Source of the DNA: an uncultured Holophagales bacterium
Lineage (GTDB): Bacteria > Acidobacteriota > Thermoanaerobaculia > Multivoradales > UBA5704
Length of the DNA: 64,000 nucleotides
Reading direction: 5' to 3'
Assembly (NCBI GenBank): GCA_963842525.1
Contig: CAWJGT010000009.1
Coordinates: 1,280,001 to 1,344,000 of the forward strand
Under the pieces are notes generated by a model that saw only the letters and a list, made by a program, of their open reading frames with translations, searched no databases and was not told where the DNA came from. The translations under genes and the position numbers were made by a program. Positions 10,217 through 58,500 of this stretch are shown in pieces (the first letter of the stretch is position 1; every line of letters begins with the position of its first letter).

Positions 10217-10275
10217 CCTCACCCCCTGGCCCCCCTCTCCCATCTCCCTTCCCAACCTCCGCCGGGAGAGGGGGA
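10217..10275. repeat. REP-like palindromic element, family A (intergenic copy)
   Basis: cctcaccccctggcccccctctcccat...ccgggagaggggga; related copies at 10600, 10688, 16406, 17130, 39462, 41028, 57225, 57751, 57860. Confidence 0.85.
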
Positions 10276-10309
10276 ACCGCTGCTGGCAGAAGCGGATACG
10301 CTCTCGTCC

Positions 10310-12231
10310 ATGGTCCTGTCGCCCTGGCTTCCGCCGTCCGGTTCCCTCGCCTTCTGGGGGGCCCACCTGCTGGCGCTGCTGCTCCTGGCGGCCACCGTCT
10401 GGGTGGCCGGCCGGGCGGCGACGCGGCGTCTGGAGATCGGAAACGGATGGGAAGGCTTCGCGATTCCGGCGGCGCTCGGGTTGGTGGTTCTTGCTCATGT
10501 CCTACTGCTGCTCGGATTCGTGGGGCTTCTCTCGCGGGGGGCGGTGATTCTGGTGGTGGCGGGGGTGTATCTGATTGGGCTGTATGCGCGAGCCCGGAAC
10601 CCTCACCCCCGGCCCCTCTCCCAGCCTCACTCCCGACCACCGGGAGAGGGGAGCCCCCACCCAAAAACTCACTGGCAGCGCCTTTTGCCCCCTCTCCCGG
10701 GCGGTAGGGAGTGCGGATGGGAGAGGGGGGCCAGGGGGGTGAGGGTCTCCGCTGGGCCTGCTGCTCGTGGCCATCCCTCTCTTCGTCCTCGCCCTCTATC
10801 CGCCGATCGAGTTCGACGAGACCCTCTACCACCTCCCGTATGCCCGGGCCTTCGCCAGCACGGGCGGCGTGCCCTTCCTGCCGGAGCTGCGTTTCCCGGT
10901 CTTCCCGCAGCTCGTCGAGGTCCTCTTCACTGCCATGCTGCTCGTGACGGGCGACGTCGCTCCCCATCTGATCAATCGCTGCTGGCGGTGCTGGCGACCG
11001 CGGCGCTCCTCGTTGGCTGGGGACGGCGGCTGGGCTCGCCGGCGGTGGGCTGGCTGGCTGGCGGCCTCTGGCTGGGCAACCCCATCGTGGCCCACCTCGC
11101 GGGGACCGGCTATGTCGATCCAGTCCTTGCGCTGCTCGCCATCTCGGCGGTGTGGGCGGTGGACCGGTGGAAGGGAGCCGGCGAAAGGGCCTGGCTCGTC
11201 CTCGCGGGAGTCTTCGCCGGCGCTGCTGCCGGCACCAAATACCTCGGCCTCTTCTTTGTCGGGGCGGTTTTCCTCGCCATTGCCTTCGCCGCTCCGCGGG
11301 AGCGCCGGATACGCGATCTCCTCCTCTACAGCCTGGTCGCGCTGGCGGTCGTCGCACCCTGGTATGGCCGCATCTTCTTTCATACGGGCAATCCGCTCTT
11401 CCCCTTCTTCTCCGGACTCCTTCCCGTGACGCCGACCCCCTGGGACCCCGAGGGCTGGCCGGTGTCCTCCCAGCCGCTCGGGGTGCGCCTGAGGGACGTT
11501 GGCGACCCTGCCCTGGGATGTGGTGTTCGAGCGTGGGAAGACAGGGTCCCAGCCGCCACACTCCCCGGCCTATCTGCTCGGCGTGCCGCTGCTGATCTTG
11601 GCCCTGTTCCGCGATGCGCGGGTGCGCTGGATGCTGGTGTTCTTCCTCGGGTACATGCTGCATCTTCCTGGTCCTGCACCCGGATGCGCGCTATCTCGCC
11701 GTCGCGCTGCCCCTGGCGAGCCTGGCCCTGGGCCTTTCCCTGGCACGGCGGGTCCCGCCCCGTCCGGCCGCCGTGCTGGCCGTGCTCCTCTTCCTGCCTG
11801 GGTGGGCCTATGCCGTCTATCGGATCGCGATCCAGGGTCCGCCGCCGGCCACGGCCGAAGCGCGGGACCGGTACCTGGCCGCGCGCCTGCCGGTCTATCC
11901 CGCCGTCCGCTTCCTGAACCACACGCGGGGGAGCGGCTACACCGTCTACGCCCTGCACGCCGAGAACATGGTCTACCACGCCGAGGGAGTGCTCCTCGGC
12001 GACTTGAACGGCCCGGCGAGCTTTGCGCGTATCGTTCCGCTGCTCCAGGACCCTGCGGCCCTCCACCACGAGCTGCGGCGCCTCGGGGCCGGCTATCTCC
12101 TGGTGGTCGACGGCACCGGCGTCCACCTGCCGGTTGACGATCCCGTCTTCCGCAAGCTCTTCCGCAGGGTCTACTCGGACGGGGCGAGCGAGGTCTTCGA
12201 GCTGCTGAGCCCGGGCATGTTCCGCAGATAG
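10310..12231 (+). CDS. Multi-pass GT-C/ArnT-like membrane glycosyltransferase (several frameshifts)
   Basis: Many TM helices; FDETLYHLPYA, GYVD, AAGTKYLG, PWY...TGNPLFP, ARYL motifs spread over ORFs 10310, 10767, 11499 and 11614. Confidence 0.7.
10600..10746. repeat. Inverted pair of family A elements inside the GT-C gene
   Basis: Forward copy 10600-10653, reverse copy 10688-10746. Confidence 0.85.
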
Positions 12232-13354: not shown

Positions 13355-13431
13355 CTGGGACCTCGAAGCTCTGAAAAAGCAGCCGGGATCTTACCACGGG
13401 CGCTACAATCTTCGTGTTCCCGGAACACTCC

Positions 13432-16394
13432 ATGAGCGGCCCGACGGTCTTCATCAGCTACAGCCATTACGACGAGGCCTGGAAGAACCAGCTCGTCAGC
13501 CAGTTACGTGTCCTGGAGATCGAGGGCGTCCTCTCCGTCTGGGATGACCGGAAGATCGCTGCCGGCGACGGCTGGCGCACCGAAATTGAGACGGCTATGG
13601 AGCACGCCCGTGCCGCCGTGCTGCTGATCTCGGCCGACTTCCTGATCTCGGAATTCATTCGTGGCACCGAGGTTCCCCGCCTCCTCCAGCGTCGCGCGCA
13701 GGATGGGCTGCGGATCATCCCGCTGATCGTCCGCCCCTGCCCATGGCGCCGGGTCCCGTGGCTGGCGGAGATCCAAGGCCGGCCCAGCGACGGCCGGCCT
13801 CTTGCCAGGGCAGCCCGGCCAGGTCGAGGAGGACCTCTCCGCGCTCGCCGGAGAGGGATTGCTGGGATGTGCTCGAGGCCGGGAGGGTGGGGGACCCTGG
13901 GACCGCGGGCGTCCCGCCCGCCCAGATTCCCATCGACCGTGGCGCTGCCGCCAGCTCAACGTCGGCCCGAGTCCGTGGAGGGCGGGCGGGACGCCCGCGG
14001 TCCCAGGGAGAAGCCACTCCCACTCTCGACATCGGCCGCCTGCCCATCCCCGGCCCGCAGTTCGTCGGCCGGGACGCGGAGATCGCGTGGCTGGATGCGG
14101 CCTGGGAGGACCCGGCCATTCACGTCCTCACCCTGGTGGCCTTCGGCGGCGTCGGCAAGTCGGCGCTTGTCGCCCGCTGGTTGGACCGCATGGCAGCTGA
14201 CGGTTGGCGCGGCGCCGTGCGGGTGCTCGACTGGTCGTTTTACAGCCAAGGGAGTAAAGACCAAAATACTTCCGCCGAGCCGTTCATCGACTACGCCCTC
14301 CGCTTCTTCGGCGATCCCGACCCCAAGGCCGGCTCCCTATACGACCGCGGCGCCCGCCTCGCCTCTCTGATCAGGCTGCAGCGCGGCCCTGCTCATCCTC
14401 GACGGCATCGAGCCGCTGCAGTACCCGCCGGGCCGGCCGGAGATCGAGGGCCGCCTCAAGGACCCCGGCCTCGTCGCCTTGCTCAAGGGCTTGGCCGCAG
14501 GTAACCCGGGCGTCTGTGTGGTCACCACTCGGGAACGGATCGCCGATCTCGCCGGTTATCCGAGCACGGCACCGCAGATCCCTCTGGAGGAACTGGAGCT
14601 GGACGCGGCGGTGGCCTTGCTCCGCCAGCTTGGCGTGGACGGCCGGGAGAGCGCGCTACGCGCTGCGGCCAAGGACGTCCAGCGGCACGCCCTCACCCTG
14701 ACCCTCCTCGGCAACTTCCTGCGCAGAGCCCACGGCGGCGATGTCCGTAAGCGGCGAGAGATCGACCTTCACCACGCCGACGAAAAGCAGGGCGGCCATG
14801 CCTTCCGCGTGATCGCCGCCTACGCCCGCTGGCTGGGAGAGGGACCGGAGCTGGCGATCCTGCGCCTCCTCGGCCTCTTCGACCGACCGGCGGAGGCCGG
14901 CCCCCTGAAGGCCCTGCGCGCCGCGCCGCCGATCCCGGGCCTCACGGAGCCCCTGGTGGACCTCTCGGGCGAAGATTGGCGGCTCGCCGTCACCACCCTG
15001 CGAGAGCACAGCCTGCTGACGGCGGCCGATCCGCGAGAGCCGGAGACTCTCGATGCCCATCCCCTGGTGCGCGCCTGCTTCGCGGAAGAGCTGGAGAGCC
15101 ACCGCCCCGAAGCTTGGCAGGAAGGTAACCGGCGTCTCTACGAGCACCTGCGCCAAGCAGCGCCGGACTTCCCCGACACCTTGGAAGCGATGCAACCCCT
15201 CTACGCCGCCGTCGTCCACGGCTGCCGGGCGGGACGGCAGGAGGAGGCAATGGACGAGGTTTTCTGGCGGCGGATCCGGCGGGGTGAACAGGCGTTCAGC
15301 TGGAGAAAGCTTGGGGCCTTTGGCTCGGAGCTGACGGCGCTGGCGGGCTTCTTCGATCGTCCTTGGTCCCAGCCCTCCGCTCGCCTCACCTCAGGATGGA
15401 CAGGCGTTCGTCCTGCACGAGGCCGCCTTCTACCTGCGAGCCCTGGGGCGCTTGGCGGAGGCGATTGAACCGATGCAGGCGGGGCTGGAGGCACGCATCG
15501 CCCAAGAGAACTGGAAGAACGCGGCGATCAGCGCAAGCAACCTCGGCGAGCTGACCCTGACCCTGGGAGACGTGTCGCGCGCCGTGGCATTCGGCGGACA
15601 GAGCGTCGAGCTGGCCGACCGCAGCGGCGATGCCTTCTTTCGGATGGTAGTGCGTGCGAGATGGGCCAACTCCCTGCACCAGGCGGGCCGGTGGGAGGAG
15701 AGCGGGGCAGCCTTCCGCGAGGCTGAAGCGATGCAGGCGGAGCGGCAGACGAAATACCCCCGGCTTTACTCGCTCCAGGGCTTTCAGTACTGCGATCTGC
15801 TGCTGAGCCGGGCGGAGCCTGGGGCCGGTTCCGGGCTGGACGGGCTCGCCGGGCTGGGCTCGTCGGAAGAGGCGGAGCGGTTCAAGCAGGCCTGCCTGGA
15901 GGTGCTGGAGCGGGGGAAGCAGACGCTGGATTGGGTCACAAGCGATTTACTAGTGTTACAGGTCCTCTCGATTTCGCCTTCGAACACCTCACCCTGGGCC
16001 GCGCCCACCTCGGCTTAGCCCTGGCCGGAGGCCCGATACCTCCGGGCTCACCCAAGTCCCTCGGTCACTGGATCAGGCCGTGGACGGCCTGCGGCAGGCC
16101 GGTCAGGAACTCTATTTGCCCCTTGGCCTCTTGGCCCGCGCCGCTCTCCGTCGCTTCCATTCCGACTTTGCCGGCGCCGCCGCAGACCTCACCGAGACTC
16201 TGGAGATCGCTGAGCGAGGCCCGATGCGGCTTCACGAGTGTGACGCGCACCTGGAGTGGGCACGCTTGTGCCGGGATCAGGGGGATCTCGCCGCGGCGCG
16301 GCGGCATTTGGCGCAGGCGCGGGAGCTGGTGAACGAGACCGGGTATGGGCGGCGGGAGCGGGAGGTGAGGTGGTTGGAGAGGGAGGTGGGGTAG
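13432..16394 (+). CDS. TIR-domain / P-loop NTPase (STAND-like) / TPR protein, with about 5 frameshifts
   Basis: TIR: VFISYSHYD, WDDRKIAAG, SADFLISEFIRGTE. Walker A AFGGVGKS, Walker B LLILDGIEP. C-terminal helical TPR-like repeats ending TGYGRREREV. Confidence 0.82.
13895..14008. repeat. Inverted REP pair (RAYT-flanking family) in the TIR-NTPase linker
   Basis: ccctgggaccgcgggcgtcccgcccgc (13895-13921) and gcgggcgggacgcccgcggtcccaggg (13982-14008), near-identical to the REPs at 30066-30931. Confidence 0.9.
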
Positions 16395-16405
16395 GGGGCG
16401 GGAGT

Positions 16406-17164
16406 CCTCACCCCCTGGCCCCCTCTCCCATCTCCCTTCCACCGCCGCCGGGAGAGGGGGGACGCATCCGGAGACGTGCGGGGAGCTTCCCCTCGTTGGA
16501 GGAGTCAACCTCCATGCGACGGGTAGTGACCCCCTGGTGAGGGGGGCCAGGCCCCTCGCGACAGGCACAGCCCCCCTGAGTAGGGGAGCCAGCCCCCTGG
16601 CCGGGGGGAATGCCCCTGGCGCCCCAGGGGTGGTCCCCCCGGCCGGGGGACATCACCCTCTGTCCGGGGGAGTCAGCCCCCTGGCGAGGGGAGTTGCCCC
16701 TGTCGCAACGGGCCTTGGCCCCCTGAGGAGGGAGAGTGCTCCCCTGCCCAGGGGGAAAGCTCCGATCCTCGGGGGACTTTCCCCGCTCCTCAGGGGATCC
16801 GCCGCTGTCCACTGATTCCGCAGCACCCAACGGCAGGGCGGGGTAGAGACGCCCCAGTCCGTGACCACGAACCTGCCGGGTGTACACAGACGGGGCGTCT
16901 CAAGGCCTCGCCGGCGAAACGGGTTCGTGCTCGCGCAGGGAATACCGCCTGGGACGCTGTACGCAGGGACGGCCATCCCGTCACCATTCGCATACGGGAG
17001 GCCCAGCGTCCACGGCGTGCTGCCGGCGTTGGTGGTTGTTGGGGCCTTGAGACGCCCCGACTGTGTGCACCCGGTCGGTTCGTGGTCACGGACTGGGGAG
17101 TCTCTACTCAGGATGAAACCGCAACGTTCCCCCCTCTCCCGGGCGGCAGGGGAATGCGGATGGG
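16406..17164. repeat. Composite repeat region: family A ends enclosing a 21-bp degenerate array and a GTAG-type inverted pair
   Basis: Family A forward at 16406-16461 and partial reverse at 17130-17164; about 13 units of ~21 bp (cccc-N-gggg-N) at ~16529-16800; inverted ~65-bp arms at 16843-16907 and 17043-17107 starting gtagagacgcccc. Confidence 0.85.
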
Positions 17165-17171
17165 TTCTTCA

Positions 17172-30014: not shown

Positions 30015-30296
30015 TGGTGTGGGGGAGGTCGTTGCGAAAAGCCGCGGTAGTGGTAACGGCGAGAGTGTTGCGGGCGAGACGCCCGCGGTCCCAGGGGGTG
30101 GCGATGTCAGCAGGGTGAAGGCCGGCGGGCTTTTCCCTGGGACCGCGGGCGTCTCGCCCGCTCTCCTCTCACCAACCTTCACGTTACCGTCCCCTGTCTC
30201 CACTCCGGCCAAGCCAGGTTTGGTGGCGTGGGGGAGGTCGTTGCGAAAGCCCAGCGGTAGTGGGAACGGTGAGTGTGTTGCGGGCGGGACGCCCGC
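30015..30296. repeat. REP cluster downstream of the RAYT gene
   Basis: REP tgttgcgggcgagacgcccgcggtcccaggg at 30066-30096, inverted copy at 30135-30161, partial copy at ~30277-30296; ~70-bp direct repeat at ~30015 and ~30223. Confidence 0.88.
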
Positions 30297-30960: not shown

Positions 30961-30962
30961 GC

Positions 30963-31634: not shown

Positions 31635-31779
31635 GGTCTGGCCTCCCGAGGCCCACCTGGCAGAATTTCTCAGTGTATGATGAAAGTGTACTGCACGAAG
31701 GAGGCCGCGTCAACGGCCCTCGCCGCGGGATGGGCGAGGGCTCGTGCGCGTTGAGGGCGGAGCTGAGGCCGAGCCGGCT

Positions 31780-36074: not shown

Positions 36075-36213
36075 GGGCTCGTCACAAAATAAGTGTCTCA
36101 TTTCGGCCCTTCAACGCGGCCTTCTAGCGAGCTGACAAAGTCTGTCCTGGGGCCCCAGACCCGTCGTGTCATCCTGAGCGTAGCGAAGGATCTGGGGGCA
36201 GGTAGGCTGCACG

Positions 36214-36672: not shown

Positions 36673-36818
36673 TCTCCACGGGCCCCGTCCCGTTTTTCAG
36701 GGCTCGCAACACTATTCCCGCAAGGCATCTGTGTGCCCGCAGTCTGCAGCTCTGATTTCTTGTCGGCGCGCTGCGCTCCCCGGGGAGCGTCGCGCCCGGG
36801 TATGATGGAGGGAGAACG

Positions 36819-42800: not shown

Positions 42801-45800
42801 CTGGTCGCCTCGGTCGACTCGCTCCAGGCGGCGATCGGCAATGACAAGGACAGCCTGACCACCGAGGTCTCCTACCGGATGAACCTCAAGGGTCCGAGCG
42901 TCCTTGTCCAGTCCTCCTCGTCGACATCGCTCACCGCGATCCACTACGCCTGCCAGAGCCTGCTGGCGGGCGAATGCGAGATGGCGATCACCGGCGGCTC
43001 GTCGATCCACGTGCCCGAGGTCTCGGGCTACCTCTACCACGAGGGAGGAACAACCGATCCCGACGGGCATTGCCGCACCTTCGACGCCGACGCCAAGGGG
43101 TTCGTCAGCGGCCACGGCGTGGGAGTCGTCGTCCTGAAGCGGCTTTCCGACGCCCTGGCTGACGGCGATCAGGTTCTGGCGGTGGTCAAGGGCTCGGCGT
43201 GCAACAACGACGGCGCGTTCAAGGTGAGCTACATGGCGCCGAGCGTCGACGGCCATGCCGAGGTGGTGCGGCTTGCCCAGGAGGCCGCGGGGGTGGGCCC
43301 CGAAACGATCACATATGTCGAGGCGCACGGCACCGGCACCCTGCTCGGCGACCCCATCGAGGTCGCGGCGCTCACGCAGGCGTTCCGCGCCGGCACTGAT
43401 AAAAAGCAATATTGCGCGCTGGGATCGATCAAGACCAATATCGGGCATCTGGACACGGCGGCAGGCGCGGCAGGCTTCATCAAGGCCGCGCTCTGTTTGC
43501 ATCACAAGACGATCCCGCCGATCCTCCACTTCAAGCGGCCGAACCCCAAGATCGATTTTGAGAGCAGCCCATTCTACGTCGCCACCGAGCTGCGGCCGTG
43601 GGACGTGCCGGAGGGCATGCCCCGGCGCGCCGGTGTCAGCTCGCTCGGCATGGGCGGCACCAACACGCACATGGTCCTGGAGGAGGCGCCGGAGGCAGAG
43701 CCTTCCGGACCGGCTCGCGAATGGCAGCTCCTGCCGTTGTCCACAAAGACCGCTTCGGCTCTGGAGAACCTGACGCTCGGCCTCGGCACCCATCTACGGG
43801 AGAGCCCGAATCTCTGTCTCGCCGACGCCGCCTGGACCCTGCAACAGGGAAGGCGGACCTTCGACCACCGGCGCGTCCTGGTCTGCCGCTCGGTCGAGGA
43901 CGGCGTCGAGGCGCTGGAGTCGCGCGATCCCGACCGGGTGCTCGACGGCTTCTGCGAGGCCGGCGAGCGGTCGGTCGCTTTCCTGTTCAGCGGCCAGGGG
44001 GCACAGTACCCGGATATGGGGCGCGGTCTTTATGACACGGAGGAGGTCTTCCGCCAGGAGATCGATCGCTGTGCTGAGATCCTCCGGCCGCACCTTGGCT
44101 TCGACCTGCGCGACGTGCTCTATCCCGGAGCCGACAGCGAGGAAGCGGCGCGGCGGCTCCAGCAGACGGCGGTCACGCAGCCGGCCCTGTTCACGGTCGA
44201 ATACGCACTCGCGCGGCTGTGGATGAGCTGGGGCGTGCGGCCGTCGGCGATGGCCGGCCATAGCATCGGCGAATACGTCGCGGCCTGTCTGGCCGGCGTG
44301 TTCGCCTTGGAGGATGCGCTGGCGCTGGTCGCCGAGCGCGGCCGGCTGATGCAGAGCATGCCGGCGGGCTCGATGCTCGCGGTGCCGCTCCCCGAGGCGG
44401 ACCTGCTGCCGCGGCTGGCACGTTTCCCCGAGGTGTCCCTCGCCACCATCAATCGGGTTGACCTCTGCGTGGTCTCCGGTCCGGGCGAGGCGATCGAGGC
44501 GCTTGAGAGGGAGCTTGCGGCGGAGGGTCTCGACTGCCGGCCGCTCCACACCTCGCACGCCTTCCACTCGGCCATGATGGACCCGATCCTGCCGGCCTTC
44601 ACGGCGGCGGTGGCCCGGGTGCCGCGGCACGCGCCGCGCATCCCCTACCTCTCGAACGTCACCGGCACCTGGATCCGGCCCGAGGAGGCCGTCGATCCCA
44701 CCTACTGGGCCCGCCAGCTCCGCGGCGCCGTCCGTTTCGCCGAAGCGGTCGCCGAGCTGTTCCGCGAGCCGGACCGTGTCCTGCTGGAGGTGGGGCCGGG
44801 CAACACGCTCGCCACGGCGGCGCGGCAGCACCCAACCCGGTCTGGTCACGCGGTGATCTCATCCCTGCGGCATCCCAAGGAACGGCACGAGGACGCGGCC
44901 TTCCTGACCGCGGCGCTCGGCAAGCTCTGGTTGGCGGGTGTCCCGGTCGACTGGACCTCCTGCCATGCGGAGGAGCGGCGGCTCCGGGTTCCACTTCCGA
45001 CCTATCCCTTCGAGCGCCAGCGATTCTGGGTGGAGCCCAAGAAGCCGGATTTCGCCACGAAGCGCGAGTCGTCCGACCTGGCCGACTGGTTCCACGCGCC
45101 TGTCTGGAAGCGGTCCAAGGCCCCGCTGCCGCTGCCCGACAATCTGGCAGGGGAGAGCTGGCTGCTCTTCGTCGACGGGCTCGGGCTGGGCGCGCGGCTG
45201 GCAGAGCGGCTGCGCGAGCTGGGCGCCGAGGTGGCCGCGGTCGAGATCGGCGACTTCTACGAAAGAGCGGGGGAGAGCACCTGGCGGCTCGATCCGCGGC
45301 GTGAGGAGGATTACGACTCCCTGCTCGCGGAGCTGGCCGACGAAAGTAAAACCCCGCGCCGGATCGTCCACCTCTGGACCGTGACCGGCGAGGGGGAGAC
45401 CCTCGGCCTCCAGGGAGCGCTCGATCTGGGCTTTTACAGTCTGCTCTTCCTGGCACGCGCCCTGGGCAAGCGGAACGGCGAGGCGAAGGTGGACCTCCTG
45501 GCGGTCTCCTCGGGCGTGCAGGAAGTGACCGGCGAGGAGCCGCTGGAGCCGGAGCGGGCCACCCTGCTCGGCCCCTGCAAGGTGATCCCGCGCGAATTTC
45601 CGAATATCGGCTGCTGGACGGTCGATGTCCCGGGCCGCTTGCCCCGGGCGGGCGTGCTCGCATCCTTGATCGACAGCCTCCTCGCGGAAGCGGTGGCCGG
45701 CGCGGCGGACCACGTCCTCGCCTGGCGCGGCGCGCACCGGTGGGTGCAGGCGTGGGAGCCGGTGCGGCTGGAGAAGGACGCGGGCCGGCCAAGGCTGCGC

Positions 45801-46982
45801 GAGGGTGGCGTCTATCTGCTCACCGGCGGCCTGGGCGGCATCGGCCTGGCCGTGGCGGAGCGGCTGGCCACCACCTGGCGGGCCAAGCTGATCCTGGCCG
45901 GCCGCTCCGGCCTGCCCGAGCGGGCCACATGGGAAAGCTGGCTGGCACAGCACGGCGAGGACGACCGGACGAGCCGTCGCATCCGCACGGTGCGGCGCCT
46001 GGAAGAGCTGGGGGCCGAAGTCCTGGTGGCCGCCGCCGACAGCTCCGACCGGCAGGCGATGGCCGGGGTCAAGGCGCAGTCGCTTGCGCGCTTCGGCCGG
46101 ATCGACGGCGTCTTCCATGCCGCGGGCGTTCCTGGCATGGGACTGATCCAGACCAAGACCCGCGAGGCCGTCGAGCGGGTGCTGGCGCCCAAGGTCCGGG
46201 GCACGCTGATCCTGGCGGACCTCTTCCGCGAGCAGGCCGGTTTCCTGGTCCTCTTCTCCTCGGTCACCTCGGTCCTGTCGCAGCCGGGCCAGTCCGACTA
46301 TGCGGCGGCCAACGCCTTCCTCGACGCCTTCGCGCAGGCGGAAAACGCCCGCGGCGGCCCCTTTACGCTGTCGGTGAACTGGGACGCCTGGCAGGAGGTC
46401 GGCATGGCGGTCGAGACCGAGGTGCCGGCGGAGCTCAAGGCCTGGCGCGAGGAGAGCCTGCGCAGGGGTTTGTCGCCGGCCCAGGGCGTCGAAGCGCTGG
46501 AGCGGGCGTTGCGCGCATCCATCGCACAGGTGGCGGTGTCGCGGCAGGACTTCCAGACGCGGATCGAGGAGAGCTGGGCCGCGCGCAGCCTGGAGGAAGA
46601 GCTGGCCACGCCCGAGGTGCGGGAGGTGCACACCCGGCCGGCGCTGTCGAGCGCCTTCGTGGCGCCCCGCAACGAGATGGAGGAGAAGATTGCCGCCGTC
46701 TGGCAAGGGGTCCTGGGGCTCGATCAGGTCGGAGTCAATGATAATTTCTTCGACCTGGGCGGCAACTCGCTGATCGGCCTCAAGGTGATCTCCCGGCTCA
46801 AAGCCGAGTTTCCGGGAGCGGACGTCTCCGCTGTCACCCTGTTCGAGGGGCCGACGGTCGGCGCCCTGGCCCGGCTCCTCCAGCCGGTCGAAGAAGGTGG
46901 AGCCGCGCCGGTCCAGGCGATCGAAGAGCGGCGGAGCCGCGGCGCGCTGCGCCGCGAGAAGCAGCGCCAGCGCAGGGTTTAG
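36819..46982 (+). CDS. Hybrid megasynthase FAAL-ACP-C-A-PCP-KS(Cys->Ser)-AT-KR-ACP
   Basis: FAAL LQYTSGST/WLPLYHDLGL/YGLAE; GLDSL; C HHIMGD; A YTSGSTG/YRTGDL; GGHSL; KS VQSSSSTSL/HGTGT; AT GHSIG/HAFH; KR GGLGGIG/YAAAN; GGNSL. Confidence 0.96.
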   Translation: MTRLSDGPLAGASSLVEVLRHRALAQPDRLAYRFLADGEVEEATFTYAELDRKARAIAATLQDLGAAGERILLLYPASLDYVAAFYGCLYAGAIAVPAYPPRPNRPMPRIRAIVADAQARIALTTQAVFATIERRIEDLPDLQALTWRTTDDLPAGPEDMWRDPSVGLETLAFLQYTSGSTATPKGVMVSHGNLIHNERLIEVACEHTGETPCVSWLPLYHDLGLIGNMIQSLWVGTPCTLMSPVSFLQSPIRWLRAVSTYGGHTSGGPNFAYELCVAKTTPEQREGLDLSSWRVAFNGAEPVRQETLEKFVSVFEPYGFRREALFPCYGLAETTLIVTGPGKHAPHVHKSFRGDELSRNRVVEAAAGDEAATRELVGCGAVLGGQDVRIVDHETLIACETGSVGEIWVAGPSVARGYWNRTEETEQAFGARPGLTPGATQSRPPGSGIPDSGEPGGRHSVAQGVNPGRGSEDGSYPYLRTGDLGFFQDDQLYITGRLKDLIILRGVNHYPQDIELTVERSHPSLRPGCGAAFSVEVDGEERLAVVQEIQREQRRADFDEIVAAVRKAVAAEHEVQLWGLAVIKPGSLPKTSSGKIQRRQSKADFLAGAVDLVGEWRESGAGAADAADLEVPDELRTREDVERWLIVRVASLAGVAPTEIAPERAIGDWGLDSLKAIELMHSIEERTGVSLPMESFFGGLTLAEVIDRVVTERIAAPAEGTLVHEGEETGDFALSDGQKALWFLWRLEPASPAYNLPAAVRITSQVDAEALRRAFQALVDRHPALRTTFAVGESGDPVQRVAPASVVDFEVVDAAGWSEEDLRARLDEEAHRSFDLEQGPLFRVRLYLRTGEPVLLLNMHHIMGDFWSLSVLARELGALLLPPSPGGGECGWERGARGVRALRFTDYVRWQRELLAGADGERLLGWWRERLAGELPVLDLSTDRPRPPVQTYRGSAVRFRIDPELTARLKTVGQSRQATLYMTLLAAFQALLHRWTGQPDLLVGSPSAGRGRASLAGVVGYFVNPVVLRADLSRELSFGDLLEQARGGVLGAFEHQDYPFPALVEHLQPQRDPSRSPIFQVMFALQNAPIPELTAFAVGEEGATVELGGLRLAHMALPQRIAQFNLTLSMGESGGSLAATLDFNTDLFDAGTAERMARSLQTLLAAAAVEPGRHISGLPVLAEDERRQVLAEWNATGAPEGEALVHELFAAQVARDPYATAVVYRGERLIYRELERRADAVAARLWELGAGPEILVGLCAERSLELVVGILAILKSGAGYLPLDPEAPAERLAFLVKDAGVQVVVTQSHLGLRWPEGIEVVSPSQPFPMGELNPVGVAGISPGFQSRESGASSDPRSPARGDRNPADEPLPPLPGLMEGDGLPFPGLKARANSGRPYGADFTPMGQGGEGSACLIYTSGSTGEPKGVLLTHRNLAGLIASFVRDYAPGSGDAVLPLTSVASASFVGEVLPALAAGAAVVLPDKEELLDFEKLTSLIAASGVSILSTVPSLLAGLNAMKDRLPKLRLLLSGGEALSAGDVDRLLGTTEIVNGYGLTETTICSTIHRVERIDFERGTIPIGQPVLGHQAYVLDGHLEPRPVGCPGELFLAGCGLARGYHGNPAGTAERFLPDPFAPDSRMYRTGDLARWRPDGSLEYLGRADQQVKIRGFRIELGEIESVLGRHPAVREAAVVARQDTGEKRLAAYVVFREGESATAGDLLAFLREKLPEAMIPAAFVPLPALPLTANGKLDVKALPVPEQLRPELAHAYVAPRGDLERIIAEVWRGALQVEKVGIHDNFFDLGGHSLLMTRVHARLKEVLPADLSLIDLFRYPTISSLARFLAPGDAAPVLPTRPVRQRGEREDIAIIAMSGRFPGARTANELWRNLVDRVESIHRFTDEELLAAGIDAEMVANPNYIKAKGILGDIEMFDASFFGHNPRSAELTDPQHRVFLECAWEALELAGYDPDRYPGRIGVFAGQSMNTYWLSNLYYHVDLVASVDSLQAAIGNDKDSLTTEVSYRMNLKGPSVLVQSSSSTSLTAIHYACQSLLAGECEMAITGGSSIHVPEVSGYLYHEGGTTDPDGHCRTFDADAKGFVSGHGVGVVVLKRLSDALADGDQVLAVVKGSACNNDGAFKVSYMAPSVDGHAEVVRLAQEAAGVGPETITYVEAHGTGTLLGDPIEVAALTQAFRAGTDKKQYCALGSIKTNIGHLDTAAGAAGFIKAALCLHHKTIPPILHFKRPNPKIDFESSPFYVATELRPWDVPEGMPRRAGVSSLGMGGTNTHMVLEEAPEAEPSGPAREWQLLPLSTKTASALENLTLGLGTHLRESPNLCLADAAWTLQQGRRTFDHRRVLVCRSVEDGVEALESRDPDRVLDGFCEAGERSVAFLFSGQGAQYPDMGRGLYDTEEVFRQEIDRCAEILRPHLGFDLRDVLYPGADSEEAARRLQQTAVTQPALFTVEYALARLWMSWGVRPSAMAGHSIGEYVAACLAGVFALEDALALVAERGRLMQSMPAGSMLAVPLPEADLLPRLARFPEVSLATINRVDLCVVSGPGEAIEALERELAAEGLDCRPLHTSHAFHSAMMDPILPAFTAAVARVPRHAPRIPYLSNVTGTWIRPEEAVDPTYWARQLRGAVRFAEAVAELFREPDRVLLEVGPGNTLATAARQHPTRSGHAVISSLRHPKERHEDAAFLTAALGKLWLAGVPVDWTSCHAEERRLRVPLPTYPFERQRFWVEPKKPDFATKRESSDLADWFHAPVWKRSKAPLPLPDNLAGESWLLFVDGLGLGARLAERLRELGAEVAAVEIGDFYERAGESTWRLDPRREEDYDSLLAELADESKTPRRIVHLWTVTGEGETLGLQGALDLGFYSLLFLARALGKRNGEAKVDLLAVSSGVQEVTGEEPLEPERATLLGPCKVIPREFPNIGCWTVDVPGRLPRAGVLASLIDSLLAEAVAGAADHVLAWRGAHRWVQAWEPVRLEKDAGRPRLREGGVYLLTGGLGGIGLAVAERLATTWRAKLILAGRSGLPERATWESWLAQHGEDDRTSRRIRTVRRLEELGAEVLVAAADSSDRQAMAGVKAQSLARFGRIDGVFHAAGVPGMGLIQTKTREAVERVLAPKVRGTLILADLFREQAGFLVLFSSVTSVLSQPGQSDYAAANAFLDAFAQAENARGGPFTLSVNWDAWQEVGMAVETEVPAELKAWREESLRRGLSPAQGVEALERALRASIAQVAVSRQDFQTRIEESWAARSLEEELATPEVREVHTRPALSSAFVAPRNEMEEKIAAVWQGVLGLDQVGVNDNFFDLGGNSLIGLKVISRLKAEFPGADVSAVTLFEGPTVGALARLLQPVEEGGAAPVQAIEERRSRGALRREKQRQRRV
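38114..38222. repeat. Inverted palindromic pair (family C) in frame in the FAAL domain
   Basis: ccccgggttgacacccggggctacc...gccctccgggct and agcccggagggc...ggtagcccagggtgtgaaccctggg. Confidence 0.85.
39462..39519. repeat. Family A element in frame in the C domain
   Basis: Encodes PPSPGGGECGWERGARGVR; near-identical to 10688-10746. Confidence 0.9.
40784..41047. repeat. Nested palindromic insertion (family D within family A remnants) in frame in the A domain
   Basis: ccccgtaggggtggccggaattagcccgggatttcaatcccggg (40817-40860) inverted with 40970-41015; inner arms at ~40888 and ~40924; ends ggccaggggggtgaggg. Confidence 0.85.
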
Positions 46983-53858: not shown

Positions 53859-55538
53859 GGCTCGCAGGACCTCGCGAACCGGCTCGCCTCCCTCTCTCCG
53901 GCCCAGCGCGCTCTCTATGAGCTGGCCCTGAAGAAGCGCCAGACGGAGAGCGAGCGTCCCATCCCAAGGGCGGTTGAGAGCCGGCCAGCGCCGGCCCCCC
54001 AGGCCCCTCCGCTCGTTCCGGTCATTCCCAGGAGGACGCGCGAAGGCGCCAGCCCGCTCTCCTTCGACCAGGAGCGGCTCTGGCGCGTCCAGCGGGCCCA
54101 TCCCGCGAGCCCGGTCTATAACATCTGCGCGGCGAGCCGCTTCCGGGGGCGGCTGAATATCGCCGCCTTTGGAAGCGCTCTGCAAGAGACGGTGCGCCGC
54201 CACGAGAGCCTGCGTACGACCTTCCGCGAGGTGGGCGGCCAGCCTATCCAGGAGGTCGCTCCGAGCGTGACGGTCCACCTCCCGGTCGTCGACCTGCGGG
54301 CGCTCCCCTGGGACCGCCGCGAGGACGAGGCCGCCCGGGCCGCCAATGCCACGGTCCGCGAGCCGTTCGACATCGGGCGTCTGCCGCTTTTCCGCATCGT
54401 GCTGGTCCAGGTGGACGACGACGACTTCGTCCGGCCCATCGTGCTCCACCACATGATCAACGACCACCTGTCGTTCTACTCGACCGAGAGCGAGCTGCTG
54501 AACTGCTATCGCGCTTTCCAGGCCGGCCGGCCTCCGGGCCTGCCCGAGCCGCCGTTCCACCTCGCCGACTTCGCGGTCTGGCAGCGGGAGCGGCTGCGCG
54601 ACGAGGCCCTGGTGGCGGATCAGCTCGCCTGGTGGCGCGAGCGCCTGGACGGCATCGTCGATCCGTTGCCGGTGCCGCTCGACCGGCCGCGCCCGGCCGT
54701 GCCGGGCCTCCGTGGCGAGCGGCGCCCATTCACCGTGCCGCGGTCCAGGGCGGCGGGGCTCGGCGATTTCGCCCAGCGCGAAGGGGTGACCCTGTTCGTC
54801 GCCGGCCTCGCGGTCTTCGACGCCCTGCTCGTCCGCCTCTCCGGCCAGGAGCGGCTGGTCGTGGGCACGCCCATGAGCTACCACCAGACCGTGGTGGACC
54901 ACGTCATGGGCTTCTACCTGAACCAGGTGCCGATCCCGGTCGACCTTTCCGGCAATCCGCCGTTCCGCGAGGTCGTGCGCCGGGTGCGCGATGCCACTCT
55001 GGGCGCCCATGCCCACCAGGATCTGCCGCTCGGGCACCTCGTCCAGGCGCTGCATCCGGGTCCGGACCAGAGCTTCCTTCCCTGGACGCAATTCGTCTTC
55101 CTGCTGCTCTATCCGCCGAAGGTGGAGGGCGGCGAGGTGCCGGGAATCGACGCGCGCTCGTATTTCGTCGATCCAAGGCGCACGCAGTTCGACACGCAGC
55201 TTGCCCTCTTCTGGCGGGATGAGGGGATCACGGGCTTCTGGGAGTACAACCCCGAGATCTGGGACCCGACCACGGTCGACCGGTTCAAGGAGTACTTCCG
55301 TATCCTTCTCGCCGGCGCGCTGGCCGAGCCCGACCGGCTGCTCTGGGACCTGCCGATGCTGCCCGAGGGCGAGCTCCACCAGCTTCAGGAGTGGGAGGAG
55401 CTCGCCGGGGTCCGGGTGCTCGACCGCCACGGCCGGCCGGTGCCGATCGGAGTGGTGGGGGAGGTCTCTCCTGGCGGCGGGAGGGCGCGCTGGCTGCCGG
55501 ATGGTCGACTGGAAAGGATGCCGCCGCGGAAGGTTTGA
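53855..55538 (+). CDS. Stand-alone condensation domain protein with a collapsed A-domain remnant (start affected by an indel or an in-frame stop)
   Basis: Docking-like LANRLASLSPAQRALYEL, PLSFDQERLW, RHESLRTTF, HHMINDH; tail VLDRHGRPVPIGVVGE...RWLPDGRLE. Confidence 0.85.
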
Positions 55539-55540
55539 GC

Positions 55541-58500
55541 ATGCCGTCTCCTGCCACCCTGCCGCTCTCGCCCGGCCAGCGGGGCCTCTGGTTCCTGCAC
55601 CGCCTGCACCCGGAGGGCTCTGCGTATCACCTGGCCCTGGCCTCCCGGATTGTCGGCAAGATCCCGGCCACGGCGATCCGCGATCTCTTCCAGGCCCAGG
55701 TGGACCGCCACGAGGCGCTGCGGACCACGTTTCCCTTGGAAGGGTACGAGCCGGTCCAGCGCGTGGCGGATCGGGCGGAGCTGAGCTTCGAGGAGATCGA
55801 TGCGATCGGGTGGGACGAGGCCGCGTTCCGTGCGCGCCTGGAGGAGGAGGCCTGGAAACCGTTCGACCTGGACAGCGGACCGCTGTTCCGGGTGCAGGTC
55901 TTTCAGCGTGCCGGCGATAGGGTGCTGCTGGTGGTGGCGCACCACATCGTGGTGGACTTCGGATCGTTTGCCGCGATGCTGAGCAGCCCGGAAGGGGGAG
56001 GCGTCCGGCAGTACAGGGACTTTCTGGCTTGGCAGGCGGAGATCTGGACGAGAGGGAGCTGTGGGCGTTCTGGCGGGATCGTCTGGCCGATCTGCCGATG
56101 CCGGAGCTGCCGGTGGACCGGCCACGGCGGGGAAGCGTGCCGGAGCGGGGGTGACTGCCGCTGGCGCGAGATCGGGCCGGGCATCCTGCGGGATCTCAAG
56201 AAGCTGGCGCGCTCGAAGGGAGGGACTCTCTACGTGGCGCTGCTGGCGGGGTTCCAGGCGCTGCTCTCCCGATATACGGGTCAGACCGATTTCGCCGTGG
56301 GCTCGCCCGCGGCCGGCAGGCCAAAGGGTTTTGCCCGGACCATGGGCTACTTCACCAATCCGCTCGCGGTGCGGGCGGACCTCTCGGGGGACCCTTCGTT
56401 CCTGGAGCTGCTTGGCCGCACCCGGCAGCGGGTCTCCGAGGCTCTGGACCACCAGCACCTGCCGTTGCCGGTGATCGTCGAGCGGCTGCGGGCCGAAGGC
56501 CGGGAGGGGGACCTGTTCCGGACGCTCTTCGTCTTCCATCGCGACCCGTCGGGCCTCGAGGGGATGGTGGGCTTCGCCCTCGGAGAAGGAGGCGGCCGGC
56601 TGCGCTGGGATGACCTGGAGCTGGAGCCCCTGCCGCTGCCGCCGCGCGCTGCGCAGTTCGATGTGACCCTGGCGGCGGGAGAGAGGCGGGGCGCCCTCGG
56701 GTTGCAGCTCGTCTACGACGCCGACCTGTTCGACGGCCCGACCGCGGTCCGCTGGCTGGAGCATCTGAGCGTGCTGCTCGAAGGCGCTACGGCCCATCCG
56801 GACGACGCCGATCGTGGAGCTGCCGTTGCTGACCCTCTGGGAGCGCCAGCAGGTACTGGTGGAGGCGAACGATCAAGGCGACGTGGAGCTGCTCTGGAGC
56901 CGCCTGGAAGAAGGGTTCGAGCGGCAGGCAGAGAGGACGCCGGAAGCGTTCGCCGTGATCGATGGGGAGAGGCGGGTCACCTATCGGGAGCTGCAGGACC
57001 GCGCGACCATGCTGGCCGAGCATCTGAGACAGCCTGGGAGTCGGCCCCGAGCAGGTCGTGGGGGTCAGGATGCCACGGACCGCGGAGATGGTGGCGTCTC
57101 TGCTCGGGGTCCTGCAGGCCGGAGCCGCCTACCTGCCGATCGATCCCGCGTATCCGGAGGAGCGGATCAACTTTCTCCTGGAGGACTCGGAGGCAAGCTA
57201 TATCCTTCAGAGCACCAACGACGTCCCCCCTCTCCCGGTGGAGGGGGGGCGATGGGAGAGGGGGCCAGGGGGTGAGGTCGCATATTTGATCTACACCTCC
57301 GGCTCCACCGGCCGTCCCAAGGGCGTCGCCATCGAGCACGCCAGCGCCGTCCGCCTCGTCGCCTGGGCCGGGAAGACCTACTCGGCCGAAGAGCTCGCCG
57401 GCGTCCTGGCTTCGACGTCCATCAGCTTCGATCTCTCCATTTTCGAGATCTTCGTCCCTCTCTCCTTCGGCGGCACGGTGATCCTGGCCGAGAACGCTCT
57501 CGCCCTGCCTGCTCTCCCTGCGGCGGGGGAGGTGACGCTGATCAATACAGTCCCTTCCGCCATCGCCGCCTTGCTCGATCTCGGGCCGCTTCCTTCCTCG
57601 GTGAAGACGGTCAATCTGGCCGGCGAGCCGCTGCGGCGGTCGCTGGCCGAGCGGGTGTATGCGGCCGGGGTGGAGCGGCTGTGGAATCTCTACGGCCCGT
57701 CTGAGGACACGACCTACTCGACAGGCTCCCTGGTTGAGCGAGGCCGAGAACCTCACCCCCTGGCCCCCTCTCCCATCGCCCACCCAGCCCATCCCCGGGA
57801 GAGGGGGAACGTAGATGAGGCGGCGGTGGCGAGTCCAGGCACAGTCGTTCCGGATGCGTCCCCCCTCTCCCGGCGGGGGGTGGAAGGGAGATGGGAGAGG
57901 GGGACAGGGGGTGAGGACCCACGGCCTGAGCCGTCAATCGGCTGGCCGGCAGCGGGCTCCCGTGCCTATGTGGTGGATGCAGGGCTTCAGCCCCTGCCTG
58001 TCGGAGTCCCTGGCGAGCTGTGCTTGAGCGGAGGAGGGCTGGCGCGGGGGTACTTCGGCCGGCCGGAGCTGACGGCGGAGAGGTTCGTGCCCGATCCGTT
58101 CTCCGGCGGAAGGCTCTACCGGACGGGCGACCTGACCCGGAGACGGCCGGACGGTGCTCTCGACTACCTCGGCCGGCTGGATCACCAGGTCAAGATCCGG
58201 GGGTTCCGCATCGAGCTCGGCGAGATCGAGGCGGCGCTGCTGGTACACCCCGGGGTGCGCGAGGCGGTGGTGGTCGCCCGGGACGGCGCGCTGGTGGCCT
58301 ATGTTGCGCTCACGGACCGGGTCGAGGGCGAGCTGGCCTCGTACCTGCGATCGCGCCTGCCGCCGGCGTTCGTGCCGTCGGCCTTCGTCGTGCTTCCGGC
58401 GCTGCCGCTCACGCCCAACGGCAAGGTGGACCGCAAGGCGCTGCCGGTTCCCTGGAGCGCGGGCGATGCGACGGAAGGGCCGTCCGGCCCGGTCGAGGAG

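What the first reader, a model, noticed from the sequence alone, without database searches (positions are those of the whole stretch)
10217..57916. Several REP-like palindrome families are inserted in frame in proteins, including NRPS catalytic domains
Seen: family A (cctcaccccctggccccctctccc...gggagagggg) is intergenic at 10217, 16406 and 17130. It is also translated inside a C domain (39462), two A domains (41028, 57225, 57751-57916) and a GT-C gene (10600-10746). Three other families sit in frame in the FAAL (38114-38222), in A1 (40817-41015) and in the TIR-NTPase linker (13895-14008). The 3387-aa ORF stays open through three such inserts. In the NRPS copies the TGA-containing frame of the ggtgagg end is never used. 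Established: Rickettsia palindromic elements are translated in frame, whereas REPs are normally intergenic. Inference: a multi-family system, possibly RAYT-driven, that adds 17-90 aa Pro/Gly-rich loops to enzymes. It could modulate assembly-line kinetics, translational pausing or recombination between modules.
Basis: partly seen in the sequence, partly recalled or inferred. Interest (0 to 1): 0.8.

Follow-up and report, generated by a model that had tools for sequence, protein, structure and literature searches.

The report
Palindromic repeats translated inside NRPS genes
Small hairpin-forming repeats that normally lie between genes also sit, in frame, in tolerant loops of this soil bacterium's giant peptide- and polyketide-synthetase genes. 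This looks like tolerated selfish DNA of a known kind, unusually abundant here, with no sign of being a new enzyme feature.

Summary
The repeats are real. Family A has 765 copies in this 9.95-Mb acidobacterial genome, and families B, C and D are long palindromes.

The in-frame claim holds for the intact 3387-aa FAAL-NRPS-PKS gene. It carries B, A, C and an A remnant, and four orthologues lack these inserts. It fails for the GT-C and TIR-NTPase genes, where the coding frame differs on the two sides of the element. The A-domain copies at 57.2-57.9 kb keep the local frame, but their NRPS has a stop, four frameshifts and a deletion.

Genome-wide, family A is three-fold depleted in coding DNA. Of 83 in-frame sites, 56 lie in NRPS/PKS ORFs, which make up 14% of the genome. 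Of 231 adenylation domains, 27 carry A, B or C just upstream of core motif A3. This is the loop where methyltransferase domains are naturally embedded.

B and C flank IS200-like Y1 transposase genes, and D flanks a RAYT in the window. No transposase was found for A.

Best reading: selfish REP/REPIN-type DNA filtered by selection into permissive loops, as with Rickettsia RPEs and the intragenic REPs of Di Nocera 2013. No function is shown. This scan found the same thing in at least eight other genomes.

The parts
10217..10275 (+). Family A unit, upstream of the GT-C gene start (intergenic)
   Evidence: (D17)
10602..10745 (.). Family A inverted doublet (arms 10602-10652 + and 10687-10745 -) inside the GT-C gene. 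The coding frame differs on its two sides, so it is not in frame.
10310..11917 (+). GT-C/PMT_2-like glycosyltransferase gene. The conserved segments lie in several phases, so it is a likely pseudogene or holds local sequence errors.
13886..14012 (.). Family D palindrome with perfect 29-nt arms. It lies in a TIR-NTPase gene whose coding phase changes at least three times.
   Evidence: (I22)
16406..16462 (+). Family A unit in a stretch with no clear coding signal
17130..17165 (-). Truncated family A unit, lacking the GGGAGAGGGG...GTGAGG half
30304..30700 (-). RAYT gene. The Y1_Tnp match is at 30376-30606. Only the last ~110 aa of the 469-aa ORF 30304-31713 match, so the true start is probably nearer 30700.
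30070..30166 (.). D-type REPs downstream of the RAYT (30070-30096 and 30128-30166). A third lies upstream at 30906-30932.
   Evidence: (D13, I11, I15)
36819..46982 (+). Intact 3387-aa FAAL-C-A-T-KS-AT-KR-T gene that hosts four translated repeat pieces
38100..38235 (.). Family B palindrome, in frame in the FAAL domain just before the RTGDLG motif. It adds 38 aa relative to four orthologues. One arm scores as Rfam Acido-Lenti-1.
39461..39520 (-). Family A unit, in frame in the condensation domain, in the loop after the HHxxxD helix
40809..41021 (.). Family C palindrome, in frame in the A2-A3 region of the adenylation domain (71 aa). Both arms score as Rfam Acido-Lenti-1.
41028..41050 (-). 23-nt remnant of a family A unit (GGTGAGG end) abutting motif A3, next to the C element. 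This is nested or sequential insertion.
53859..64000 (+). Disrupted NRPS stretch. The coding signal continues in the same phase after a TGA at 53856-53858, then changes phase near 55.5, 56.8, 57.04 and 59.2 kb. One adenylation domain is mostly deleted.
57225..57277 (-). Family A unit directly upstream of motif A3 in the disrupted NRPS. The same insertion occurs in paralogues at C20:44053 and C30:22456.
57751..57916 (.). Family A inverted doublet (REPIN-like, -71.1 kcal/mol, z -9.6). It lies between positions 300 and 315 of the adenylation-domain seed, and the local frame is kept.
   Evidence: (I5)

Best explanation
These are several families of selfish, hairpin-forming REP/REPIN-type repeats. 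At least three (B, C, D) are tied to Y1/HUH tyrosine transposases and presumably move as single-stranded hairpins. They land everywhere, and selection removes most hits in genes. Survivors inside genes are those that kept the reading frame, avoided the one stop-containing frame, and fell in surface loops or inter-domain linkers that tolerate 17-90 extra, probably disordered, Pro/Gly/Ser/Arg-rich residues. NRPS/PKS megasynthases make up 14% of this genome and are full of such loops and linkers, so they collect most of the survivors. The clearest case is the stretch just upstream of adenylation core motif A3, a site known to accept whole embedded domains. The inserts are then inherited as part of the protein, through module duplication and across species. 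Shown here: repeat families, copy numbers, positions, frames, empty orthologues and transposase neighbourhoods. Inferred: the mode of movement, the disordered-loop state and the neutrality of the inserts.
For: (1) Mostly extragenic. By one flank-based coding classifier, 119 of 765 family A copies (16%) lie in an open frame with the same coding phase on both sides, against 1854 of 4000 random positions (46%).
(2) Survivorship signature. Of 86 copies lying within or between NRPS/PKS domain matches, 79 have the same ORF on both sides and 7 sit where the ORF changes. All five stop-free orientation/frame combinations are used (9, 33, 14, 19, 40) and the TGA frame is used 0 times. No single peptide is therefore favoured.
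(3) Host bias. 56 of 83 in-frame sites lie in megasynthase ORFs, which hold 14% of the genome.
(4) Same loop, unrelated elements. 24 of 276 A3 motifs have family A within 150 nt upstream. 27 of 231 adenylation domains carry A (20), B (4) or C (3) there. All 3 in-frame C copies and 4 of 9 in-frame B copies are at this loop.
(5) That loop is a known permissive site. Methyltransferase domains are embedded between a2 and a3 in TioN and MarQ (PMC11355689, passages; also PMC8097286, passage).
(6) Many events. On a tree of 258 adenylation domains, 23 insert-bearers need 19 changes.
(7) Orthologues without the inserts.
(8) Long retention. One insertion is shared, with about 90% identical flanks, by G000, G095 and G062, and is half deleted in G090. 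The element-end-plus-A3 pattern occurs in 23 of 81 genomes of the family and 0 times in the reversed control.
(9) Non-NRPS hosts include DnaE and UvrD, with one Pfam match spanning each insert. These are the classes reported for intragenic REPs (PMC3733652, passages).
(10) In an AlphaFold2 model the insert is coil with pLDDT 22-48, between core strands.
Against: Insert ends cluster tightly: 13 of 24 end 11-20 nt before the Tyr codon of motif A3, and 23 of 24 present the GGTGAGG end to the motif. Uniform tolerance across the roughly 50-aa variable region would not predict this. Family A has no transposase in the 34 Y1 places examined, so its mobility is assumed, not shown. In-frame copies fit the family profile as well as extragenic ones, median 41.0 against 42.1 bits, p = 0.08. 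This could mean maintenance rather than neutral decay. No expression or protein data exist (one search listed no runs). The structural model is of low overall confidence (mean pLDDT 59). Three genes in this one window show multiple frame changes, so either pseudogenes are common or the assembly has local indel errors. I could not decide between these without reads.
Confidence: 0.7

Rival explanations
1. Targeted insertion. The DNA just upstream of motif A3, the most conserved nucleotide stretch of adenylation domains, is itself a preferred landing site. The cause could be a short target recognised by the mobilising enzyme, or single-strand or secondary-structure features there. On this view the loop is hit more often, not just tolerated more often.
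For: 13 of 24 family A copies end 11-20 nt from the Tyr codon. 23 of 24 have the same end facing the motif, and 11 of 12 single units have one orientation. The junction GGTGAGG-NN-CTCGCCTAC recurs across many genomes.
Against: Three unrelated families with different or no transposases use the same loop. A shared protein-level filter explains this more simply than three shared DNA targets. No conserved flanking motif appears next to 718 family A copies or next to B, C or D copies. Other in-gene sites are also loops and linkers: T-C, KS-AT, C-A, A4-A5 and the C-domain loop. Three of the single units are one event inherited by paralogues.
Confidence: 0.15
2. Spread inside megasynthases mainly by module duplication and gene conversion between adenylation domains, anchored in the conserved A3 sequence, and not by repeated transposition.
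For: C9:1337223, C20:44053 and C30:22456 carry the same insert with diverged flanks. NRPS genes recombine often, mostly within the A core (PMC8097286, passages). A fixed A3-side junction with a variable far side would fit conversion tracts that start in A3.
Against: 23 insert-bearing domains need 19 state changes on the adenylation-domain tree. The ten shuffles I printed gave 21-23. Close paralogues carry different configurations, a single unit against a doublet. Only 1 of the 83 site contexts has a near-identical twin. Best-partner discordance across the loop is no higher in insert-bearers, 33% against 37% concordant, p = 0.44.
Confidence: 0.1
3. Exaptation. The hairpins or their peptides are kept because they do something useful, such as ribosome or polymerase pausing between subdomains, flexible spacers that tune domain movement, or homology handles for module shuffling.
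For: Doublets and long elements are very stable hairpins, -71 to -84 kcal/mol as DNA. One insertion is retained across genera. In-frame copies are no more decayed than others. In 3 of 27 domains the A2-A3 stretch is shorter than usual (29-36 aa against a median of 50), so the element seems to replace the native loop.
Against: All stop-free frames and both orientations are used, so no peptide is conserved. The same orthologous insert is half deleted in G090. Four orthologues of the 3387-aa gene do without the inserts. The recombination test was negative. Two of the window's host genes are broken.
Confidence: 0.05

Closest known systems
Intragenic REPs ('REP-decorated proteins') of GTAG/CGTC-tagged palindromic repeats, Di Nocera et al. 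2013 (PMC3733652; passages read)
   Same: Short palindromic repeats that are mostly extragenic, with a minority lying wholly inside ORFs of known proteins as single units, dimers or clusters that encode about 20-80 aa. The authors suggest the inserts are neutral because they fall in flexible linkers or loops. DnaE and UvrD are among the hosts both there and here. Some families have a flanking tyrosine transposase and others have none. An Acidobacteria-specific group of such transposases flanked by long inverted repeats is described.
   Different: NRPS/PKS hosts are not mentioned: 'peptide synthetase' occurs 0 times in the main text, and I did not open its supplementary table of host ORFs. Here two thirds of in-frame sites are in megasynthases and one loop is hit by three families. 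I did not establish a GTAG or CGTC tag for family A.
Rickettsia palindromic elements (RPE; Ogata et al. 2000, known to me through the text of PMC3733652 and from recall, paper not read)
   Same: Palindromic repeats inserted in frame in genes that likely encode functional proteins.
   Different: Different phylum, free-living, with a large genome. No sequence relationship was tested. Protein-level expression is reported for RPE-1 hosts (as cited in PMC3733652) and is unknown here.
REPIN-RAYT systems (Bertels and Rainey 2011, PMC3116915; search listing and start of abstract only)
   Same: Inverted doublets of a REP unit form a long hairpin, occur in hundreds of copies, and are shared by related genomes: 57 of 81 in the family. 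Family D flanks a RAYT.
   Different: No RAYT was found for family A. The transposases of B and C score as IS200/IS605-type and not as RAYT. A large in-gene fraction is not a described feature.
Interrupted adenylation domains (M, Ox or KR domains embedded between a8-a9, a2-a3 or A4-A5; PMC11355689 and PMC8097286, passages)
   Same: The same permissive places in the adenylation fold. The a2-a3 region is the main hot spot here, and two sites lie between A4 and A5.
   Different: Those inserts are folded catalytic domains with a function. These are low-complexity translations of repeat DNA.
Rfam RF01687 Acido-Lenti-1 RNA (Weinberg et al. 2010, PMC2864571; table row and alignment in a supplement seen)
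   Same: Both arms of family C and one arm of family B reach the family's gathering score: 51.4, 47.7 and 41.5 bits against 37.
   Different: It is listed as a candidate small RNA. Here the matches are arms of dispersed DNA palindromes, and they flank three Y1 transposase genes in inverted orientation.

Membership tests
REP/REPIN-RAYT system | Short imperfect palindrome in high copy number, mostly outside genes | tested here: met
   Family A has 765 copies. 16% are in frame in coding DNA, against 46% of random positions. The unit has an 11-13-bp G/C stem and a 17-22-nt loop, at -12 to -14.6 kcal/mol. The single-unit z is only -1.2 to -1.4.
REP/REPIN-RAYT system | Inverted doublets that fold into one long hairpin (REPIN) | tested here: met
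   The doublet 57749-57918 folds at -71.1 kcal/mol, z -9.6. Many '><' doublets occur genome-wide.
REP/REPIN-RAYT system | A RAYT gene flanked by copies of the same REP | tested here: not met
   Family A: no copy within 2 kb of 19 Y1_Tnp places in G000. nhmmer at E <= 1 finds none in 25 fetched loci, 10 from G000 and 15 from five relatives. Family D does meet this feature: REPs at 30070-30166 and 30906-30932 flank a gene that reaches NF047646.
REP/REPIN-RAYT system | GTAG (or CGTC) tetranucleotide at one end of the unit | not tested
   GTAG follows the stem in some of the 40 copies printed, and others read GCATCC. No count was made.
IS200/IS605-type Y1 transposase with dispersed palindromic derivatives (REPtron/TIRYT-like) | A single ~150-aa Y1 transposase gene flanked on both sides by copies of a dispersed palindrome family | tested here: met
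   B flanks the C14 gene (203950-204105 and 204745-204880). C flanks the C32 gene (133447-133539, 134068-134161, 134808-134908). Both genes exceed NF033573, at 68.4 and 65.9 bits against a cut-off of 55, and match PF01797. B has 42 loci and C has 27.
RPE-like / intragenic REP (in-frame palindromic insert in a functional protein) | The insert lies inside a conserved protein, in the same frame on both sides, and is absent from orthologues | tested here: met
   In the 3387-aa ORF the B and C inserts are absent from four orthologues. 79 of 86 copies in NRPS/PKS context have the same ORF on both sides. In DnaE and UvrD a single Pfam match spans the insert. The feature is not met for the window's GT-C and TIR-NTPase genes.
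RPE-like / intragenic REP (in-frame palindromic insert in a functional protein) | The insert sits in a surface loop and leaves the fold intact | tested here: inconclusive
   AlphaFold2 model of the adenylation domain from an 8-row alignment: mean pLDDT 59. The insert (residues 127-207) is coil at pLDDT 22-48, between strands 99-102 and 207-213. The site matches known permissive sites.
RPE-like / intragenic REP (in-frame palindromic insert in a functional protein) | The host protein is expressed with the insert | not testable with these tools
   No sequencing run was listed, and there are no proteomics data.
Rfam RF01687 Acido-Lenti-1 | Covariance-model score at or above the gathering threshold | tested here: met
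   Three matches in the window and eight beside Y1 transposase genes in L002, L003 and L007.
Interrupted adenylation domain | A folded auxiliary catalytic domain embedded in the A domain | tested here: not met
   The inserts are 17-71-aa translations of repeat DNA, with no Pfam match of their own in the host scans and no predicted secondary structure. Only the site is shared.

The most novel reading that the evidence does not exclude
The hairpin repeats are not mere passengers. They are preferentially kept at subdomain and domain boundaries of megasynthases, above all next to motif A3. There, dozens of near-identical 60-170-nt stretches at equivalent positions would serve as homology handles for swapping adenylation cores and modules. 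Alternatively, the very stable hairpins would pause transcription or translation between folding units. On this reading a repeat family helps generate the large NRPS/PKS repertoire of these soil Acidobacteriota.
Probability: 0.07. Interest if true: 0.8.

Novelty: new member of a known kind. Interest (0 to 1): 0.4.

Why it matters
In-frame palindromic repeats in proteins are known, so the principle is not new. The scale here gives a natural map of where megasynthases tolerate extra sequence. About one adenylation domain in eight carries such an insert in the same loop, contributed by three unrelated repeat families. Inter-domain linkers and a condensation-domain loop are also hit. That map is useful for NRPS engineering and for annotation. 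Such inserts, with their homopolymer runs, can make genes look split, can inflate 'novel' loop features, and can mislead specificity predictors. The finding also ties the Rfam 'Acido-Lenti-1 RNA' to the arms of transposase-associated DNA palindromes. Family A remains a widespread repeat with no known mobilising enzyme.

Tried and rejected
(1) Public sequencing runs for 37900-41200: none was listed and no RNA holder was listed. Expression and read-level checks of the assembly were therefore impossible, and read laying was not used.
(2) RAYT for family A: not found near 19 Y1 places in G000 or in 25 fetched loci.
(3) Genes bracketed by two A copies: 40 ORFs, with only one cluster of 2.
(4) Recombination test across the A2-A3 loop: 27 insert-bearers against 204 others. 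Concordance was 33% against 37%, and the median relative score drop was 0.28 against 0.06, Mann-Whitney p = 0.44. The test has low power.
(5) Target motif or target-site duplication: none seen beside A or beside B, C or D. Element boundaries are not exactly known, so a length-mod-3 count was not meaningful. The profile-adjusted lengths show no clear pattern.
(6) A coding mask built from ORFs of 150 aa or more covered only 65% of the genome and counts gene-end REPs as coding. I did not use its densities.
(7) My first classifier threshold (0.25) was too strict and was replaced.
(8) The first orthologue alignment used the wrong strand for some loci and was redone.
(9) Papers on REPs inside NRPS adenylation domains: searches returned nothing on this. 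The hits were Pseudomonas comparative genomics, Planktothrix IS elements and reviews, seen as listings only.
(10) Assembly chimera as the explanation: rejected, because the same insertion stands in independent assemblies of other species. Only one of the 83 in-frame site contexts has a near-identical twin elsewhere in the assembly, so duplicated contigs inflate the count little.

Full report
SETTING. The window is C9:1280001-1344000 of a 9.95-Mb, 34-contig, 68% G+C assembly. Earlier notes of this scan call it a soil acidobacterium. I did not test that label. At this G+C content, long open frames occur in non-coding phases. I therefore judged coding by codon-position G+C, by a codon log-odds score trained on 914 long ORFs and by homology, never by ORF length alone.

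THE REPEATS ARE REAL.
- The 24-nt family A core occurs 4 times in the window at up to 3 mismatches and 0 times in 100 shuffles. Looser copies lie at the other stated places.
- A profile of eight window copies finds 765 copies in the genome, evenly split between strands.
- The unit is a C-rich tail (CCTCACCCCCTGG) followed by an 11-13-bp G/C stem and a 17-22-nt loop. On its own it folds little better than shuffles (z -1.2 to -1.4).
- Two units in inverted order form a REPIN-like hairpin of -71.1 kcal/mol, z -9.6.
- Families B (136 nt, 42 loci), C (213 nt, 27 loci), D (127 nt, 32 loci) and a fifth family E (272 nt, 14 loci) are long palindromes.

WHICH WINDOW COPIES ARE IN FRAME.
- The 3387-aa ORF 36819-46982 (FAAL-C-A-T-KS-AT-KR-T) keeps one coding phase over its whole length.
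- It reads through B (aa 428-473), A (881-901), C (1331-1401) and a 23-nt A remnant (1404-1411).
- A search of 40 relatives returned orthologues whose matches break exactly at the B and C inserts, while the subject DNA is contiguous or nearly so.
- In the alignment, G020, G004, G010 and G008 lack the 38-aa B insert and the C insert, and have a shorter loop at the A site. More distant homologues carry other short low-complexity inserts at the same two places.
- In the GT-C gene, the orthologues' conserved segment is encoded in phase 0 directly after the doublet, whereas the N-terminal part is in phase 2. Phase 0 meets the element's TGA. Further phase changes follow near 10960, 11560 and 11650.
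- In the TIR-NTPase gene the coding signal runs phase 1 (TIR), phase 2, element D, phase 0 (P-loop GGVGKS), then phase 1 (Walker B).
- The NRPS downstream of 53.9 kb has an in-frame TGA at 53856 with the coding signal continuing in the same phase. It also has four phase changes and a condensation domain fused to the tail of a mostly deleted adenylation domain. Its two family A sites keep the local frame.
- So one of the four host genes is intact, and two of the five claimed in-frame hosts are not in frame. I cannot tell true pseudogenes from local indel errors without reads. I did not test that claim.

GENOME-WIDE PICTURE.
- I used a classifier that asks for the same best coding phase in the 300 nt on both sides and an open frame across the element. 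By it, 119 of 765 family A copies are in frame in coding DNA, against 1854 of 4000 random positions. The other copies were classed as: one flank coding 394, non-coding 107, same strand but different phase 86, opposite strands 38, same phase but closed 15, contig edge 6.
- The 119 copies form 83 sites in 65 ORFs. Only one pair of site contexts is near-identical.
- ORFs with condensation, adenylation, KS or AT matches number 269 and hold 1.39 Mb, which is 14% of the genome. They hold 56 of the 83 sites.
- By homology context, 86 copies lie within or between megasynthase domain matches. Of these, 79 have the same ORF on both sides and 7 sit where the ORF changes.
- In the 115 in-frame copies with a recognisable anchor, sense units use the three frames 9, 33 and 14 times. 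Antisense units use the two stop-free frames 19 and 40 times and the TGA frame 0 times.
- In-frame copies score like extragenic ones against the profile: median 41.0 against 42.1 bits, p = 0.08.

ONE LOOP STANDS OUT.
- Of 276 matches to the A3 core motif, 24 have family A within 150 nt upstream. Of those 24, 13 end 11-20 nt before the Tyr codon and 23 present the GGTGAGG end to the motif.
- Counting families A, B and C, 27 of 231 evaluable adenylation domains carry a repeat between seed position 92 and motif A3 (A 20, B 4, C 3). That stretch has a median of 50 aa without a repeat and 29-125 aa with one.
- All 3 in-frame C copies and 4 of 9 in-frame B copies are there. The single in-frame D copy is in a C-A linker.
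- Other recurrent sites are the loop after the HHxxxD helix of condensation domains, T-C and KS-AT linkers, the A4-A5 region, and seed positions about 300-315 and 453 of the adenylation domain.
- On a FastTree of 258 adenylation domains built from the 320 aa after the motif, so that the loop itself is excluded, the 23 family A bearers need 19 changes. The ten shuffles I printed gave 21-23. Three sites (C9:1337223, C20:44053, C30:22456) are clearly one event inherited by paralogues.
- The a2-a3 region, and also A4-A5 and a8-a9, are published places where whole methyltransferase or other domains are embedded in adenylation domains (PMC11355689 and PMC8097286, passages).
- An AlphaFold2 model of the window's adenylation domain is weak overall (8-row alignment, mean pLDDT 59). 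It shows the insert as coil at pLDDT 22-48 between core strands.

HOSTS OTHER THAN MEGASYNTHASES.
- I scanned twenty of the 26 such ORFs against Pfam. The six I did not fetch are listed.
- The hosts include DnaE (insert inside the PHP domain match), UvrD (inside the N-terminal helicase match), an RND pump, ABC transporters, a CHAT-TPR protein, a histidine kinase and several membrane proteins.
- DnaE and UvrD are the very classes highlighted for intragenic REPs by Di Nocera et al. 2013 (PMC3733652, passages).

TRANSPOSASES.
- The genome has 20 Y1_Tnp matches, 8 of them strong and full-length. Most of the strong ones are flanked on both sides by repeated segments of 10-80 copies.
- Copies of B flank the gene at C14:204236-204577. 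Copies of C flank the gene at C32:133626-133973. D-type REPs flank the gene at window 30376-30606.
- The first two genes exceed NCBIfam's IS200/IS605 model. The window gene reaches the RAYT model at 80.4 bits against a cut-off of 80.
- Rfam's Acido-Lenti-1 family matches both arms of C and one arm of B in the window. It also matches hairpins beside three of the Y1 genes.
- Family A is near none of the 19 Y1 places in G000. It is in none of 25 fetched Y1 loci, 15 of which come from five relatives. No gene recurs between pairs of A copies.

RELATIVES.
- The family A doublet matches in 57 of 81 genomes sampled from the taxonomic family, in 7 of 11 genera.
- The pattern 'element end, 1-30 nt, A3 motif' occurs in 23 of 81 genomes (4 of 11 genera) and never in the reversed control.
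- One such insertion is orthologous in G000, G095 and G062, with flanks about 90% identical in protein, and is half deleted in G090. The inserts are therefore inherited for long periods and are not artefacts of one assembly.

READING.
- The simplest account is selfish REP/REPIN-type DNA plus a selective filter. In-gene survivors keep the frame, avoid the stop frame, and sit where extra disordered residues do no harm. A genome that is one-seventh megasynthase offers many such places.
- The tight clustering beside A3 and the orientation bias are not fully explained. They leave room for some DNA-level targeting or for conversion between domains.
- My test for recombination across the loop was negative but weak. 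Nothing found here points to a function for the inserts.

PRIOR KNOWLEDGE.
- In-frame palindromic repeats are established for Rickettsia, and for GTAG/CGTC REPs in several phyla (PMC3733652).
- I found no paper on REPs in NRPS adenylation loops.
- This scan has already recorded the same phenomenon in at least eight other genomes, one with this very element family. Those are unchecked AI notes. They agree with my reading but are not independent evidence.

Noticed in passing
window 36126-36754: A tandem array of a 63-nt unit, at least 7 copies in register at 72-100% identity. Each unit holds a small palindrome. The array lies directly upstream of the start of the 3387-aa gene. The unit gives 111 BLAST matches genome-wide.
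   Followed up: partly
window 16836-17107: Family E: a 272-nt palindromic element with 65-nt arms that are 92% complementary. It has 14 loci in the genome, none classed as in frame in coding DNA.
   Followed up: partly
window 38179-38222, 40815-40860, 40970-41015; L002, L003, L007: Rfam RF01687 'Acido-Lenti-1 RNA', listed as a candidate small RNA, matches the arms of repeat families B and C. It also matches hairpins placed in inverted orientation on either side of three IS200-like Y1 transposase genes. In this genome it therefore behaves as a transposase-associated DNA palindrome.
   Followed up: partly
L055 (G000:C9:302102-303322): One 407-aa open frame joins the end of HisF (His_biosynth, aa 38-121) to HisI/HisE (PRA-CH 219-292, PRA-PH 303-397) through a family A doublet at aa 138-194. 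This is either a repeat-mediated gene fusion or an intergenic repeat that happens to lack stops.
   Followed up: no
L061 (G000:C9:93880-97419) and L064 (G000:C9:710014-712998): DnaE carries a family A unit inside its PHP domain, and a UvrD-type helicase carries one inside its N-terminal helicase domain. In each, a single Pfam match spans the insert.
   Followed up: partly
window 53856-53858: A TGA ends the 1572-aa PKS ORF, but the same phase continues with a typical inter-module linker and a condensation domain, with no start codon before 54192. This is a nonsense mutation, a sequence error or an unusual gene boundary.
   Followed up: partly
window 41028-41050: A 23-nt remnant of family A lies at the usual A3 junction with a full family C element immediately beside it. 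This suggests one repeat landed in or next to another.
   Followed up: no
G000, whole genome: 269 ORFs holding 1.39 Mb (14% of the genome) carry NRPS/PKS-type domains, and 276 A3 core motifs were counted. This is an unusually large biosynthetic load.
   Followed up: partly
G000:C18:39395-39834 and C19:531558-531997: Two contigs share a 440-nt stretch at 100% identity, including a family A doublet in an NRPS gene. This is a recent duplication or assembly redundancy.
   Followed up: no
genome-wide, 24 family A sites upstream of motif A3: 11 of 12 single units at this loop are in one orientation, with the GGTGAGG end towards A3, although in-gene copies overall are balanced (59 against 56). Three of the eleven are one inherited event.
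   Followed up: partly
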